Shown here in pieces: positions 744-26,302 of a DNA stretch of 27,387 bases. The position numbers and the translations under genes were made by a program. Every line of letters starts with the position of its first letter. The first letter of the stretch is position 1. The stretch is from positions 157,532-184,918 of the forward strand of contig NW_004797344.1 of NCBI RefSeq assembly GCF_000002075.1, read 5' to 3'. The notes under the pieces are model-generated. The model ran no database searches and was not told the DNA's origin. It worked only from the letters and a program-made list of their open reading frames with translations. This stretch comes from Aplysia californica. Lineage: Eukaryota.

Positions 744-842
744 CTTGACTTGGTGGTCTTCACCAGCAGTAATTATCTCCCTTCCAGACGGAGAAAATAT
801 CAGCTTGTTCACAGGCCCAGCATGACCTTTCACGTTGCCCAC
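744..842 (-). CDS. TEP1: TEP1 exon, WD40: VGNVKGHAGPVNKLIFSPSGREIITAGEDHQVK. The gene continues beyond the window start.
   Basis: Acceptor tttgttttgcttcag|, donor AAG|GTAAGG. WD40 motif present; phase 0 is consistent with the upstream exon. Confidence 0.7.
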
Positions 843-1658
843 CTGAAGCAAAACAAAGAAAAATTTAATTCAGAAACACACGCAGAACAAATTTCAAGAT
901 GAAATAAGACTTTCAGGGAAAAAAATAGTCTTACTATTCAGCCGGAAATTCATTTAAATAAACAGGAATGTTTTCAGAGAGTCAACTGTTGCAATAATGT
1001 TTGAACTTGAAAAACACATCCTCACTTAACTTCAAACCAGAGCATGGTGCAACTGTTCAAGATGATTAGGGAATGAGAATAATGGAACTTCTAACACCTG
1101 CACCGAAAGAATGGTCAGCACAACAAAAAAATGCTAGACTTTCCCTACATTCCTCCTCAGTTACATTTTTCTCAAAGCCAAATTTATATTTTCGGAATAT
1201 TTTTTCCAGGGTGAAGGAAATGCTGAAATGTGAGCTAATGACGAGCCAGCATGACAACTATCCCATTTTATCAATTCTAAATCAAGGACTAGGGTAATAA
1301 TGCTGTAAATAAGTATGGACCATACCAGAGTTTTCATAAAGCACAGTCAATTGGTGAATTAACGAGACTTTAAAAAAAATGTTTATACGCCCTGTCAACA
1401 CAATTTAGACCATTTAGAAGGTGGGTGTCTAAGCCTGCCTATCAGGGTGCCAACCGGGGCTGAGAGGGATACATCCAAGCACAAAGACTGAGATACTCGA
1501 TGAACATTTTCTCCTCATTTGGGAATAGAACACTGGTCTCCTGAGTGCAGCAGCACAGTGCCTCACCACTACACCACAGAAGCTGCTTTAATGAGACTGA
1601 AAACAGAAGAATAGTGAGAGCATACTCCATGACCACTGTGCAGATTACTATATCTCAC

Positions 1659-1778
1659 CTGGGAGCCTTTGTCTGCGGCCCAGATCTTTACGTCTCCATC
1701 CATCGCAGCAGAGGCCAAGTGGCGTCCATCTATGGAGTAGGCAATGTCCCTCACTGAGGTGCTGTGTCCACGCAGAAT
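1659..1778 (-). CDS. TEP1: TEP1 exon, WD40: ILRGHSTSVRDIAYSIDGRHLASAAMDGDVKIWAADKGSQ
   Basis: Acceptor ttgttcctgtaccag|, donor CAG|GTGAGA. Confidence 0.8.
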
Positions 1779-2186
1779 CTGGTACAGGAACAACAAGAAC
1801 AGGTCAATGATGTGAGAACAACATGGAAAAAGAGAGTCAGACATGCTCTATGCACTGTCACCTGCCCAAGACAATCACATGAATAAACCACCACTTCCCA
1901 TTCCCCCCCCCCCTTGTTTTTTCCCCTATATATTATAATGATGTAGTCCAAGACATCCACCTTGGACAATTTCAACTGCAGTTTGCACTTCTGTTCTACA
2001 AACAAAAACTGATCGTCCAACACAAGAATTTGAATGAGCCAAAACCAGAAATTGTGAATTAGAGGATAACTGTTTCATATAAGTTGCTCAAAAGTTACAG
2101 ACAATAAAGTAAAAAAAAATTAAAAACATTTCAGGGTCATTTCATAAGATTTGGGTATAGATCTAGGATCAAAGAGGAAGAGGGTT

Positions 2187-2246
2187 TATAATAATAATAA
2201 TAATAATAATAATAATTATAATAATAGTAACAATAATAATAATAAA
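2187..2246. repeat. (ATA)n/(TAA)n microsatellite
   Basis: ataataataataataataataataattataataatagtaacaataataataataa. Confidence 0.9.
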
Positions 2247-2526
2247 TGCCTTATACAGTGCACATTCATACTCTACAGTATGCTCTATGCACTTTATAAA
2301 TATTATTACCTAGTCAGACCCTAGAAGTCAGAAACATTCTCGGGAAGCATACAGTGCAAACAGCTAGTTAAGGATTCAAACACTAATAAGTTGACAAGAT
2401 CTTTCACTGTGTATTGCCAAGGACACAACAAACAGCCCTTGATAGAGTTCAAAACCATAACCCTTTTGGTTAGGAGCCCAACAGCCTAACCACTTGACCA
2501 CTGACGTCACATAAAACAATACTCAC

Positions 2527-2632
2527 AGCGACACGCGTCTTGTGGAAGTAATTGTAGATTCTGATCAGAGAATCCCAGCTGCCAACAACGACGAGCTCCT
2601 CCGAGGGATGGAAATCAACACAGTTGACAGGG
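2527..2632 (-). CDS. TEP1: TEP1 exon, WD40: (S)PVNCVDFHPSEELVVVGSWDSLIRIYNYFHKTRVA
   Basis: Acceptor gtgtttgtaacag|, donor GCT|GTGAGT. Aligns with TEP1 LNCVAFHPEGQVIATGSWAGSISFF. Confidence 0.8.
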
Positions 2633-2974
2633 CTGTTACAAACACAAGAAAACAAGAGCTGTTATAAGGCAATTTACACAAGAAGAATCTGAGATATTGA
2701 TTTTTTCTCCCTTGTTGCTCAAAAAACTCAAATCAAATACAAACAACTCTGTTCATCTTTTAAGTTGCAGACAAGCACCATAAGTGAAGCAGGCAAGTAA
2801 ATTGCAATGAAAAGATATATTCCCCTCAAAGTTTGAGTGAGGGATTGAGCCTCTGGAAAAGTTCTGAAGCTAAATGCTTTTGTACTGGAGCAGAACTTCC
2901 ATTATCAAAGATCTATCTTTAATAAAAATAATACTTGATAATTTGCAATTAACTAGTCCAAAGTTCTTGAGGGG

Positions 2975-3008
2975 AAAAAAAAAAATAAAAAAAAAAATAA
3001 AAAAAATA
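2975..3008. repeat. Poly-A / (A)nT run
   Basis: aaaaaaaaaaaataaaaaaaaaaataaaaaaaataa. Confidence 0.85.
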
Positions 3009-3035
3009 AGCACAATAAATGAATCGAGTTCTCAC

Positions 3036-24073: not shown

Positions 24074-24235
24074 GTCCGAGGGCAGCTCACAATCCAAGAC
24101 AGCATTCATGTTGTCTAGAATGGTTCCTTTACGCAGTTCAATGGCTTTGTATGATTCGTCATTGAAGACAATCATCTCACATTCTTCACAGGAGTACTTG
24201 CACATCAGACCCATCAGGACTGAAATTTCTCGCAA
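24074..24235 (-). CDS. TEP1: TEP1 exon (vWA): LREISVLMGLMCKYSCEECEMIVFNDESYKAIELRKGTILDNMNAVLDCELPSD
   Basis: Acceptor ttgcttttcag|, donor GAC|GTAAGC, phase 0 at both ends. MIVFNDES aligns with Ro60 VVAFSDEM. Confidence 0.75.
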
Positions 24236-24658
24236 CTGAAAAGCAAAGGGGAAAGTTAATCAAGCTTATTTAGACAAACTAACAAAACCAATCTATAAAT
24301 TACTTGCAGTTCAGAAAAACATTTTGCTTTTTAAAAATAATATATTTTATATAATAATATTCACATTATGCATATCTCCCTGTCAGCACTGAAACATGTC
24401 TCTTCAGGTTCTTTTTAAGATCGTAAATTTAAACACACACTGACCATTTCCTACAAACCTACCCAATGCAAGAGACACAAAGAAGGAAATATATTGCCCA
24501 ACCCTCAGTAAAGAGACCCAAAACTCCGAGAGAGCATGGAGAACCTGCTGTTAACAGCAGCCTTCGTTCTAGAGACTGGAGTGTTTTATTTAAAGATGAA
24601 CGAGAAGAAGAACACACACTGAAACTAGAGTCCGAATAAAAGGTGATAAATCACTTAC

Positions 24659-24839
24659 TGTGCGTGGCTTTCCGAGACCCCTGGCACTCGAGCATGGCTT
24701 GTTCATTTTCTGGCTAATGTCACACAACAGAATTGTGCGGCCTTTAATAGGCTGCACATTGTGGACAGTAGCAATTTTCACAGCTGTGTCCAATGCTTTG
24801 CGGTATCTCTGCAGCAAAGCTTTATCATACGGAACCTCC
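24659..24839 (-). CDS. TEP1: TEP1 exon, start of the Ro60/TROVE-type vWA domain: EVPYDKALLQRYRKALDTAVKIATVHNVQPIKGRTILLCDISQKMNKPCSSARGLGKPRT
   Basis: Acceptor cttttcttcag|, donor ACA|GTAAGT. KALDTAV..GKRTILLCDISQKM aligns with Ro60 KALDAAF..GKRFLLAVDVSASM (MIDAS DxSxS). Confidence 0.8.
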
Positions 24840-25314
24840 CTGAAGAAAAGACAAAATTTTGATGTCATATCATAGGCATGGGTCACAAAGTAGAATCTAT
24901 AATTTCTTATATTGACATGAAATGATAAATGTGAAAAACAAACACTGGTAAAAAAATCCCAATGACTGTATTCATACTTTCTATCCAAAAGTGTTAATTA
25001 TTCTTGTCTTGCGCTATCTCAACAAAACTTTGGCTATCAGCACAAACTATGTATTCCTACAAATGCAAAAAATGTTTGCCCCAATTGGAAAAAAATATAA
25101 AAACCCCCTAAAAATAGCTTAGTCCTGGTTTGCAATGTTCCTGCTTTCTGGAAAATAACTTAAGTAAAGGACTAATTTTACCTTATAGACAAAGAACAGA
25201 AAGAAACCCTTACCGTATAAGAAATTCTACCTTTATATCTCATATTCATACATCTAAGACTCCTATAACTCTACAAAATTTTTTTTTAAAAAGAGAGTGA
25301 ATAGGCCTACTCAC

Positions 25315-25483
25315 GTGGGTCCTGCAGCATCTTTCTTTTGCTTACGAAGCACCCACCAAGCAAACTGCCCATCACTGTCACCAGATGCGCCTCTTCTCCC
25401 TCCTCTGCCTTTGGCTCCTCGCCCTCTCACTCCTCCTCCCCTCACACCTGCTCCTCTCGCACCCCTTCCTCTGCCCCTAAATC
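25315..25483 (-). CDS. TEP1: TEP1 exon (TROVE) containing an RG/RGG-rich tract: GFRGRGRGARGAGVRGGGVRGRGAKGRGGRRGASGDSDGQFAWWVLRKQKKDAAGPT
   Basis: Acceptor ttttcttttcccag|, donor CAC|GTGAGT. Phase matches the upstream exon (1 nt + 2 nt) and the downstream exon. The C-terminal WWVLRKQ..PT leads directly into the vWA exon. The plus-strand ORF 25297..25548 is its antisense. Confidence 0.6.
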
Positions 25484-25948
25484 CTGGGAAAAAGAAAATT
25501 TCTGTACAATTCAAAGCAGTTACTCATTTTAAGAAACATTATGTATAAACCTTCTCGCCTCATATCCACCTGCAACAGATATTTATTTCCTCATCAAATT
25601 GTACAAACCTTACAATGATATCCTCTCCAGAGATTTCAAAATAGGCAGAAAGAGTTATTCTTTCAACAGAGAACAGACAGAAACTATCTTGTATGGTAAA
25701 GCTCTATCAAAACCTTGCAATCTATTTAGACTGCATAGGTATGAAAAAAAAAAATCACAGCAAATTAAAAGTACAAAACAAATATCAAATCTGTTTCAGT
25801 AAAAATCTTAAAACATTACAAAGTTACCATAACAAAGTTTCAACTCAAAACATCACAATGAATTGAATGTACATAAACATAAAATGAGGCTACCCAAGGA
25901 GTCCAACATAGGATATGTGATCAGAAAAAATACAGAAAATTTTGTTAC

Positions 25949-26014
25949 CTGTCTGAACTTTGGAATAAACACGACCTTCAGACTCTGCTTCAGCTTTCGC
26001 AATGATCTCCTCCT
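25949..26014 (-). CDS. TEP1: TEP1 exon (TROVE), EEIIAKAEAESEGRVYSKVQT
   Basis: Acceptor cttgaacag|, donor cagacag|gtaacaa. Phase is consistent with both flanking exons. VYSKVQTG aligns with Ro60 ETYKTGHG. Confidence 0.55.
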
Positions 26015-26143
26015 CTGTTCAAGAAGAGAAATAAACACATAAAATCTTGCACTGCAACACTTAGTTAAACTAAAAATATACCTCAGAATGAACATCAGCT
26101 TAGCATCTGGAACGATGAATAAAGATTCAAACTGGTCATTTAC

Positions 26144-26302
26144 CATAAAAACATGGTCTCAAATCAGGCAGAACATAAGGCAAAATCCTGTAACTAGAAA
26201 GTGGGTGCAATAACAGTAAACAGTCAGACTCTTCATAATCATCGTCTCCATCCTCATTGTCATCATCCTCATCATCATCATTGTCATCATCCTCATCATC
26301 AT
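26144..26302 (-). CDS. TEP1: Candidate TEP1 exon (TROVE region) encoding an acidic D/E-rich tract, ..DDDEDDDNDDDEDDDNEDGDDDYEESDCLLLLHPLSSYRILPYVLPDLRPCFY. The 5' boundary is uncertain.
   Basis: Open minus-strand frame ends at a good donor TATG|GTAAAT in phase 1. That matches the 2-nt start of the next exon (g+ag = E). The only in-frame acceptor (gatgag|AT) is weak with no polypyrimidine tract, and the better acceptor cccag| opens a different, M/R-rich frame. The stretch LLLLHPLSSYRIL loosely resembles Ro60 KARIHPFHILIAL. Confidence 0.3.

What the first reader, a model, noticed from the sequence alone, without database searches (positions are those of the whole stretch)
744..26302. One ~26-kb minus-strand gene encodes a TEP1 (telomerase/vault-associated protein 1) orthologue: TROVE-vWA + DUF4062 + NACHT + WD40
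About 31 hand-built exons have canonical splice sites and an unbroken phase chain. Their translation carries a Ro60-type vWA/MIDAS (LLCDISQKM), DUF4062 ([29 protein letters not shown]), a NACHT P-loop (GKSGSGKT), Walker B (LVVFLDGLDMMED), and TEP1-specific stretches (NPLYLKLACEEL, LAKHRKSLDESGFGNQ, GLYPEELYELLSWYSV), then at least 6 WD40 blades. DUF4062-NACHT-WD40 is the same STAND layout seen in prokaryotic NLR-like defence proteins, here fused to an RNA-binding TROVE ring. The gene is incomplete at both window ends: the N-terminal TEP1 repeats and most of TROVE lie to the right, and more WD40 blades to the left.
Basis: partly seen in the sequence, partly recalled or inferred. Interest (0 to 1): 0.6.

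Follow-up and report, generated by a model that had tools for sequence, protein, structure and literature searches.

The report
Mollusc TEP1 (vault/telomerase protein) gene fragment
The window holds the middle 1,351 codons of an ordinary, intact-looking mollusc copy of TEP1, the large RNA-binding, NAD-cleaving NLR-like protein of vault particles; it is a correct gene call, not a new kind of system.

Summary
On the minus strand, 30 exons (26014 to 744) have GT-AG borders throughout and one unbroken 1,351-codon frame. The product aligns in a single collinear stretch with scallop TEP1-like XP_021378535.1 (54% identity, residues 675-1979 of 2,701). It is 65% identical to sea-slug Elysia TEP1, so the source is probably a gastropod-like mollusc.

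Domain order:
- RGG linker
- last 33 positions of Pfam TROVE
- Ro60-type vWA (DUF5920)
- DUF4062
- NACHT
- winged-helix and helical region
- six WD40 blades

Corrections:
- The 'MIDAS' is incomplete (DISQK, not DxSxS).
- The 'TEP1-specific' helical motifs also occur in bacterial DUF4062-NACHT-WD40 proteins.
- Pfam NACHT and TROVE score just below their gathering cut-offs.

The link to prokaryotic defence is real but already published. Two 2026 preprints show DUF4062 is a TIR-like NADase in phage defence and in human TEP1. The catalytic Glu and two of three active-site Arg are conserved here. Verdict: known gene family, low novelty.

The parts
25949..26014 (-). Exon 1 in window (aa 1-22, EEIIAKAEAESEGRVYSKVQT). 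Charged linker that follows the TROVE 'FPFRFFSAY' exon in homologues. It starts in phase 1, so at least one more exon lies upstream.
   Evidence: Strong acceptor (cttgaacag|AG) and donor (CAG|gtaaca). Matches Elysia 'RDIIESALAKEQGS' and scallop 'SDIVEAAEAATNQ' at the same position.
25315..25483 (-). Exon 2 (aa 23-78). RGG/RG-rich linker followed by 'FAWWVLRKQKKDAAGP'.
   Evidence: Acceptor ttcccag|GA, donor AC|gtgagt; only this donor keeps the frame. Same RG-rich stretch plus 'WW..KK.K' in oyster P0074, scallop P0240 and Elysia P0247.
24659..24839 (-). Exon 3 (aa 79-138). C-terminal end of the Pfam TROVE model and first strand of the vWA; MIDAS-position motif LLCDISQKM (24730-24704).
   Evidence: tblastn 60-65% identity to oyster and scallop. 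Pfam TROVE positions 410-442 of 442, 21.7 bits.
24074..24235 (-). Exon 4 (aa 139-192). vWA-like / DUF5920 (LREISVLMGLMCKYSCEECE...).
22952..23017 (-). Exon 5 (aa 193-214). vWA-like / DUF5920.
   Evidence: Same length as the Elysia segment 'FEMVKGVPYSVLLEKLRDRVE'.
21912..22057 (-). Exon 6 (aa 215-263). vWA-like / DUF5920.
21365..21436 (-). Exon 7 (aa 263-287). DUF5920 (HDNDIYISGYSDAILR).
20768..20932 (-). Exon 8 (aa 287-342). End of DUF5920 plus the linker to the NADase domain.
   Evidence: The junction ...TPTPR|WRT is identical to Elysia.
19803..19979 (-). Exon 9 (aa 342-401). Start of the DUF4062 / TIR-like NADase domain ([20 protein letters not shown]); contains the equivalent of human R908.
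   Evidence: Pfam DUF4062 58 bits. PDB 11gz_A (human TEP1) E 1e-60.
19170..19412 (-). Exon 10 (aa 401-482). DUF4062 core: GVLGERYGW (equivalent of R976) and SVTELE. The second Glu (aa 455, codon 19252-19250) is the equivalent of the human catalytic E1008.
   Evidence: Alignment to 11gz_A, with chain index + 893 giving human numbering; this offset fits R908, R954, R976 and E1008. Residue roles from 10.64898/2026.05.01.722283.
18212..18322 (-). Exon 11 (aa 482-519). TIR-like domain, loop-helix region.
17269..17389 (-). Exon 12 (aa 519-559). End of the TIR-like domain (YPCHWGGCVDGKPVVSGLEEFG).
16145..16327 (-). Exon 13 (aa 560-620). NACHT N-terminal part with Walker A GKSGSGKT (16177-16154).
15583..15758 (-). 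Exon 14 (aa 621-679). NACHT.
15115..15262 (-). Exon 15 (aa 679-728). NACHT Walker B LVVFLDGLDMMED (15201-15163).
14305..14481 (-). Exon 16 (aa 729-787). End of NACHT (LAKHRKSLDESGFGNQ).
13911..14003 (-). Exon 17 (aa 788-818). NPLYLKLACEELRVFGVFEK helical motif, shared with bacterial homologues.
13350..13482 (-). Exon 18 (aa 819-863). Winged-helix region (HTH_NWD1-like).
12336..12513 (-). Exon 19 (aa 863-922). Winged-helix region (LYPEELYELLSWYSV).
11379..11488 (-). Exon 20 (aa 922-959). Helical region.
9607..9695 (-). Exon 21 (aa 959-988). APAF1_C-like helical domain (RAFSELPYHL).
8206..8320 (-). Exon 22 (aa 989-1027). Helical domain.
7156..7261 (-). Exon 23 (aa 1027-1062). Helical domain (QQYKSFIFRNINILV).
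5581..5752 (-). Exon 24 (aa 1062-1119). End of the helical domain and lead-in to the first propeller.
4612..4707 (-). Exon 25 (aa 1120-1151). WD40 blade.
3541..3665 (-). Exon 26 (aa 1152-1193). WD40 blade.
3036..3185 (-). Exon 27 (aa 1193-1243). WD40 blade.
2527..2632 (-). Exon 28 (aa 1243-1278). WD40 blade.
1659..1778 (-). Exon 29 (aa 1279-1318). WD40 blade; donor CAG|gtgaga.
744..842 (-). Exon 30 (aa 1319-1351). WD40 blade; last exon in the window, and the gene continues to the left.
26144..26302 (-). It is 159 nt and phase 1-1, so it could only be a cassette exon.
   Evidence: Phase-compatible. Against it: weak acceptor with an AG 6 nt upstream, overlap with a TCATCA/GAT-type tandem repeat, and no counterpart in any homologue between 'FPFRFFSAY...' and the 'DII' linker.

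Best explanation
The window contains the central part of one protein-coding gene on the minus strand. It is a mollusc orthologue of TEP1 (telomerase-associated protein 1, the vault minor protein). The source is most likely a gastropod or a close relative.

What is shown:
- 30 spliced exons encode a 1,351-aa segment.
- Domain order: charged/RGG linker, end of the TROVE module, Ro60-type vWA (Pfam DUF5920), DUF4062, NACHT P-loop NTPase, winged-helix and APAF1-like helical domains, then the first six WD40 blades.
- The segment is collinear with annotated TEP1 proteins.
- The catalytic Glu of the DUF4062 TIR-like NADase and the NACHT Walker A and B motifs are intact.

What is inferred, from published work on mammalian TEP1 and bacterial homologues:
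- The TROVE ring and vWA bind small structured RNAs (vault RNA, telomerase RNA).
- The STAND module works like an NLR or APAF-1. The WD40 propellers hold it inactive or sense a ligand, and NTP-dependent NACHT oligomerisation brings the TIR-like domains together.

The N-terminal repeats and the TROVE core (right) and about 700 aa of further WD40 repeats (left) lie outside the window.
For: Gene structure:
- Unbroken 30-exon GT-AG chain of 1,351 codons. Chance of no stop is about 7e-40.

Homology:
- Single collinear HSP to scallop TEP1-like XP_021378535.1: 54% identity, 72% positives, bit score 1475.
- 65% identity to Elysia marginata TEP1 GFS23870.1.
- All named top hits are 'telomerase protein component 1'.

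Domains:
- Pfam DUF4062 58 bits, DUF5920 48.5, WD40 156, NPHP3_N 25.0 (GA 24.8), APAF1_C 23.6 (GA 22.8), NACHT 23.4 (E 6e-5), TROVE C-terminal end 21.7 (E 1.3e-4).
- Human TEP1 TIR-like crystal structure 11gz_A matches aa 343-555 at E 1e-60. E1008, R908 and R976 are conserved.
- An AlphaFold model of the amphioxus homologue P0004 (pLDDT 78.7) finds Ro/Rsr/Ro60 structures first, then generic vWA and TIR domains.

Literature:
- NADase activity of human TEP1 and of bacterial DUF4062: preprints 10.64898/2026.05.01.722283 and 10.64898/2026.09.04.749371.
Against: - No transcript data, so splice junctions rest on consensus sites and protein homology only.
- The TROVE core is not in the window, so a defining TEP1 feature is unverified for this gene.
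- Pfam NACHT and TROVE are below their gathering thresholds.
- The BB-loop Arg (human R954) is Cys here, at a split codon.
- The MIDAS motif is incomplete.
- NADase activity, RNA binding and vault association are extrapolated from human and bacterial proteins. Nothing is known for this species.
Confidence: 0.93

Rival explanations
1. There are two adjacent genes rather than one. An upstream TROVE-vWA (Ro60-like) gene ends near 20.8 kb, and a separate DUF4062-NACHT-WD40 NLR-like gene starts near 20.0 kb.
For: DUF4062-NACHT-WD40 proteins exist on their own in bacteria and in animals (NWD1/NWD2). The metagenomic proteins P0032 and P0045 start exactly at 'WRTVRIFISSTF'. There are no transcript data here.
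Against: - Exon 8 ends in a split codon (AG|G) with no in-frame stop.
- Exon 9 has no Met near its start and begins in phase 2.
- The junction '...TPTPR|WRT' is conserved with Elysia.
- Every TEP1 homologue spans the junction without a break.
Confidence: 0.03
2. The gene is a TEP1-derived paralogue or truncated copy that lacks the TROVE core. It would start in or just right of the window, with only the RGG linker and vWA upstream of the NLR module. Alternatively it is a recently inactivated pseudogene.
For: No TROVE-core exon is detectable in the 1.4 kb right of exon 1. An ATG-containing ORF (26453-26307) could in principle splice into the acidic ORF.
Against: - Exon 1 starts in phase 1 and is homologous to the linker that directly follows the TROVE 'FPFRFFSAY' exon in scallop and Elysia. 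An upstream coding exon is therefore required.
- Several introns in this gene exceed 1 kb, the longest being 1,683 bp. A first intron longer than 1.4 kb would be in range.
- No stop or frameshift occurs in 1,351 codons, and the catalytic and P-loop motifs are intact. This argues against a pseudogene.
Confidence: 0.04
3. It is a different DUF4062 NLR (NWD1/NWD2/NPHP3/TTC41-like) mis-assigned as TEP1.
For: These proteins share DUF4062-NACHT-helical(-WD40) architecture. HTH_NWD1 and NPHP3_N Pfam models score weakly here.
Against: - The vWA/DUF5920 and TROVE-end exons are spliced in frame upstream of DUF4062.
- The best matches over the whole length are annotated TEP1 proteins.
- The human TEP1 TIR-like domain matches at E 1e-60.
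Confidence: 0.01

Closest known systems
Annotated mollusc TEP1 proteins: Mizuhopecten yessoensis 'telomerase protein component 1-like' XP_021378535.1 (2,701 aa) and Elysia marginata TEP1 GFS23870.1
   Same: Collinear over all 1,305 alignable residues (54% identity) and over 728 residues (65% identity). They share the RG-rich linker, vWA, DUF4062, NACHT, helical and WD40 order.
   Different: Different species, since identity is only 54-65%. The window covers only residues equivalent to about 650-1979 of the scallop protein.
Human TEP1 (Q99973; TIR-like domain structure PDB 11gz)
   Same: Same architecture. The DUF4062 domain matches at E 1e-60, with catalytic E1008, R908 and R976 conserved. Human TEP1 is an NADase inside vaults.
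   Different: The R954 equivalent is Cys. An RGG linker lies between TROVE and vWA; it is present in the mollusc sequences and absent from the few fish and hagfish fragments I saw. No functional data exist for molluscs.
Ro60 / bacterial Rsr (TROVE + vWA RNA-binding ring)
   Same: The TEP1-family vWA region is closest in fold to the vWA of Ro/Rsr: 2nvo 7.7e-7, 9kop, 9nen, 1yvp. This was tested on amphioxus homologue P0004.
   Different: No detectable sequence similarity, either by single sequence or by profile. The MIDAS position reads DISQK, not DxSxS, and this position varies across TEP1s. Ro60 has no NADase-NACHT-WD40 module.
Bacterial DUF4062 ('NIR') STAND defence proteins (Avs-type, Swarozyc, Vulcan/Vesta) and uncharacterised DUF4062-NACHT-WD40 proteins (P0032, Blastocatellia P0019/P0023)
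   Same: End-to-end alignment of aa 343-1339 at 33% identity (E 1e-152), and 37% over 685 aa. They share the catalytic Glu motif and the helical motifs NPL[FY]L..ACEELRVFG and ELPY.
   Different: They have no TROVE/vWA RNA-binding module. They are prokaryotic, intron-less, and act in phage defence. PADLOC 2023 models give only weak Avs2/Avs1b hits.
NWD1 / NWD2 / NPHP3 (other animal DUF4062 NLR-like proteins) and APAF-1
   Same: DUF4062 (or CARD in APAF-1), a STAND NTPase, a helical domain, then WD40 or TPR. The activation logic is presumably the same.
   Different: They lack TROVE/vWA. Purified human NWD1, NWD2 and NPHP3 showed no NADase activity.

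Membership tests
TEP1 (telomerase/vault-associated protein 1) | Full-length collinear similarity to annotated TEP1 proteins | tested here: met
   One HSP, 54% identity over 1,315 columns to scallop TEP1-like. 65% over 728 aa to Elysia TEP1.
TEP1 (telomerase/vault-associated protein 1) | TROVE module (RNA-binding HEAT-like ring) N-terminal of the vWA | tested here: inconclusive
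   Only Pfam TROVE positions 410-442 of 442 are encoded (21.7 bits, GA 23). No TROVE-core exon lies between 24871 and 27387. The core must lie outside the window if it exists.
TEP1 (telomerase/vault-associated protein 1) | vWA-like domain (Pfam DUF5920) between TROVE and DUF4062 | tested here: met
   DUF5920 48.5 bits, GA 27. The Ro60-type vWA fold was shown on homologue P0004.
TEP1 (telomerase/vault-associated protein 1) | DUF4062 / TIR-like NADase domain with catalytic Glu (human E1008) | tested here: met
   DUF4062 58 bits. 11gz_A E 1e-60. The Glu in SVTELE is conserved, R908 and R976 are conserved, and R954 is Cys.
TEP1 (telomerase/vault-associated protein 1) | NACHT P-loop NTPase with Walker A and Walker B | tested here: met
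   GKSGSGKT and LVVFLDGLD are present. Pfam NACHT covers model positions 4-165 of 167 but scores 23.4 bits, below GA 26.7. NPHP3_N scores 25.0, above GA 24.8.
TEP1 (telomerase/vault-associated protein 1) | C-terminal WD40 propellers | tested here: met
   Six WD40 repeats in the window (156 bits). Beta-prop_TEP1_C 44.5 bits (GA 32); TEP1_2nd 78.9 bits (below GA 89). The remaining repeats are outside the window.
TEP1 (telomerase/vault-associated protein 1) | N-terminal TEP1 repeats; binding to vault or telomerase RNA; residence in vault particles | not testable with these tools
   The N-terminus is outside the window. RNA binding and localisation need experiments.
Ro60-type vWA with functional MIDAS | MIDAS motif DxSxS at the end of the first beta-strand | tested here: not met
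   The window has D-I-S-Q-K. The position varies among 22 TEP1 homologues and is not among the conserved columns.
Bacterial DUF4062 (NIR) anti-phage STAND systems | Prokaryotic, defence-island context, DUF4062 effector on a STAND NTPase sensor | tested here: not met
   The architecture and catalytic Glu are shared. However, this is a spliced eukaryotic gene fused to TROVE/vWA, and PADLOC hits are only weak Avs2/Avs1b. It plausibly works like these systems but is not a member.

The most novel reading that the evidence does not exclude
This copy is a TROVE-less TEP1 derivative. The gene would begin just inside or just beyond the right edge of the window. RNA recognition would then be supplied by the RGG box (plus an optional acidic cassette) and the vWA, not by a TROVE ring. 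That would make it an RNA-linked NADase-NLR distinct from canonical TEP1. The evidence does not exclude this, because no TROVE-core exon was found in the window. However, exon 1 needs an upstream coding exon and is homologous to the linker that follows TROVE in relatives.
Probability: 0.03. Interest if true: 0.4.

Novelty: already known. Interest (0 to 1): 0.15.

Why it matters
Mostly as a clean annotation. It shows that a mollusc keeps an intact TEP1 with the catalytic Glu of the recently described TIR-like NADase and a functional-looking NACHT P-loop. This fits the 2026 reports that this NAD+-cleaving STAND module is widely conserved from bacteria to animals. It gives an invertebrate sequence for comparative or biochemical tests of TEP1 and vault function. 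It does not open a new question. The link to prokaryotic defence that made the finding look interesting has already been shown experimentally for human TEP1 and its bacterial homologues.

Tried and rejected
I used database homologue P0003 instead.
- The second homologous-protein search, using the C-terminal half, was swamped by generic bacterial WD40 proteins and gave no TEP1 guide.
- That database returned no proteins longer than about 1,030 aa, so no full-length TEP1 came from it.
- I looked for TROVE-core exons right of 24871 with eight TROVE-containing queries at permissive settings, and with N-termini of five full-length TEP1s. Only noise came back.
- I looked for a further exon left of 744 and found none.
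- For the junction from exon 2 to exon 3, my first choice of donor (C|gtaagc at 25346/25345) broke the frame. The GTGAGT donor at 25315/25314 restores it and matches the homologues.
- Sequence and profile searches of the PDB for the vWA region found nothing. Only a fold search on a predicted homologue structure linked it to Ro60.
- Rfam (gathering threshold) and ARAGORN found no RNA genes.
- Pfam scans of ten other long ORFs on both strands found nothing except a low-complexity Atrophin hit on a (GA)n microsatellite.
- The source species could not be identified with the available collections.

Full report
**Nature of the window.** The 27.4-kb window is eukaryotic. GC content is about 39% and it carries microsatellites. 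Rfam at gathering threshold and ARAGORN find no RNA genes.

**Checking the observation.**
- A crude concatenation of these segments hit proteins named 'telomerase protein component 1' from Lingula, Branchiostoma and an oyster, plus bacterial DUF4062 proteins.
- tblastn of those homologues back onto the window gave a strictly collinear series of exon cores on the minus strand, from 24871 down to 8174.
- I enumerated AG and GT sites around every core, chose those that keep the frame, and checked them against homologues.
- The result is 30 exons from 26014-25949 to 842-744.
- All 29 introns are GT-AG and 301-1,683 bp long. Phases are consistent, and the product is 1,351 aa without a stop.
- At the window's base composition, the chance of no stop in 1,351 codons is about 7e-40.
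- Every quoted motif is at the expected place.

**Validation of the model.** Spliced sequences cannot be submitted to the exhaustive search. I therefore searched with database homologue P0003 and recovered full-length TEP1 proteins.
- The model aligns in one BLASTP HSP (residues 47-1351) with residues 675-1979 of Mizuhopecten yessoensis TEP1-like XP_021378535.1. Identity is 54%, positives 72%, bit score 1475, with only 20 gap columns.
- No exon is missing or spurious within that span.
- The closest relative is Elysia marginata TEP1, at 65% over 728 aa.
- Next come the scallop (54%), the clam Mya (48%), a crinoid (46%), a sea urchin (45%), amphioxus (43%) and a priapulid (42%).
- The source is therefore a mollusc, nearest to gastropods. 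The species could not be identified.

**Ends of the gene.**
- The scallop protein has about 674 residues before the aligned part and about 722 after it.
- No TROVE-core exon is detectable between 24871 and 27387, and no exon lies in 1-743.
That the TROVE core lies to the right is an assumption.
- Exon 1 (EEIIAKAEAESEG...) matches the linker that directly follows 'FPFRFFSAY...' in Elysia and scallop. It starts in phase 1, so an upstream coding exon is required.
Its phase fits (159 nt, phase 1-1).
- That ORF has a weak acceptor, sits on a GAT/TCATCA tandem repeat, and has no counterpart in any homologue. I treat it as doubtful.

**Domains.**
- DUF4062: 58 bits (GA 24.7).
- DUF5920, the TEP1 vWA-like region: 48.5 bits (GA 27).
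- WD40: 156 bits in six repeats.
- NPHP3_N (25.0, GA 24.8) and APAF1_C (23.6, GA 22.8) sit at threshold. HTH_NWD1 is just below (23.6, GA 27).
- NACHT: 23.4 bits (E 6e-5, nearly full model length, GA 26.7).
- TROVE: 21.7 bits, last 33 model positions only (GA 23).
- Walker A (GKSGSGKT) and Walker B (LVVFLDGLD) are intact.

**The vWA region.**
- It has no sequence or profile match in the PDB.
- An AlphaFold model of the amphioxus homologue P0004 (pLDDT 78.7) finds Ro/Rsr/Ro60 structures first: 2nvo at 7.7e-7, then 9kop, 9nen and 1yvp. Generic vWA domains and a TIR domain follow.
- 'Ro60-type vWA' is therefore right at family level.
- The MIDAS is not intact. The window reads DISQK, and this position varies among 22 TEP1 homologues.

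**The DUF4062 domain and the defence link.**
- The model's residues 343-555 match PDB 11gz_A, 'Telomerase protein component 1', at E 1e-60.
- Two 2026 preprints (10.64898/2026.05.01.722283 and 10.64898/2026.09.04.749371) show that DUF4062 is a TIR-like NADase. It acts in bacterial anti-phage systems and is active in human TEP1 inside vaults.
- They identify E1008 as catalytic, with R908 and R976 contributing.
- With chain index + 893 giving human numbering, all four named residues fall on the right letters in the human chain.
- The window's protein keeps the catalytic Glu (second E of SVTELE, codon 19252-19250), R908 and R976. It has Cys at R954, at a split codon.
- Residues 343-1339 align end to end with a metagenomic DUF4062-NACHT-WD40 protein (33% identity, E 1e-152). 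They align at 37% with Blastocatellia proteins.
- These bacterial proteins also carry NPL[FY]L..ACEELRVFG and ELPY.
- PADLOC 2023 gives only weak Avs hits.

**Mechanism.**
- Shown here: the architecture and the intact catalytic and P-loop motifs.
- Inferred from published work and general knowledge of TEP1 and STAND proteins:
  - TROVE and vWA bind small RNAs.
  - The WD40 propellers gate NACHT oligomerisation.
  - Oligomerisation activates NAD+ hydrolysis by the TIR-like domain.

**Rivals.** All three are unlikely for the reasons given in their entries. None can be fully closed without transcripts or flanking sequence.
- Two separate genes.
- A TROVE-less or pseudogenised copy.
- A non-TEP1 DUF4062 NLR.

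**Verdict.** The gene family, its presence in molluscs and its link to bacterial defence are all already known. Interest is low.

Noticed in passing
window 25315-25483 (-): An RG/RGG-rich exon (GFRGRGRGARGAGVRGGGVRGRGAKGRGGRRG...) links the TROVE end to the vWA. Similar RG-rich linkers occur in oyster, scallop, Elysia and an unnamed eukaryotic homologue (P0026), but not in the fish and hagfish fragments I saw. RGG boxes are common RNA-binding motifs, so this could be a lineage-variable extra RNA contact.
   Followed up: partly
window 19803/19412 junction (aa 401): The equivalent of the human TEP1 BB-loop Arg R954, which points into the active site in the crystal structure, is Cys here. It is encoded by a codon split across an intron (TG|C). 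Other invertebrate homologues have Lys or Arg at this position.
   Followed up: partly
window 455-679 (+), flanks 444-454 and 680-690: A roughly 225-bp tRNA-derived SINE sits in the intron left of the last exon. It is flanked by a perfect 11-bp target-site duplication, AAACATCTACC.
   Followed up: yes
window 16-84 (-) and 8383-8470 (+): Two copies of another tRNA-like SINE head are 84% complementary as inverted repeats. Rfam tRNA scores 23.2 bits, below the gathering threshold. One lies at the window edge and one in intron 21.
   Followed up: partly
window 8831-8897, 16513-16579, 18034-18100: Three intronic copies (75-78% identity) of a repeat at least 67 nt long (GCTCATATGACCTTATGCAGTTGCGAGCGCCGTAAAA...). 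This is presumably an interspersed element of the host genome.
   Followed up: no
window 7686-7761 / 7985-8060: 76-nt inverted repeat arms (87% complementary) lie 223 nt apart in intron 22, giving a MITE-like structure. Another inverted pair is 9848-9963 / 26505-26620 (116 nt, 79%).
   Followed up: no
window 4765-4982: A 54-bp unit is repeated four times (95% identity) in intron 24, immediately upstream of the exon starting at 4707.
   Followed up: no
window 26768-26834 and 27206-27290: A (GA)n microsatellite and a (TCTCTG)n microsatellite face each other as an imperfect inverted repeat about 370 nt apart, in the presumed intron upstream of exon 1. They produce a spurious 'Atrophin-1' Pfam hit on a plus-strand ORF.
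   Followed up: yes
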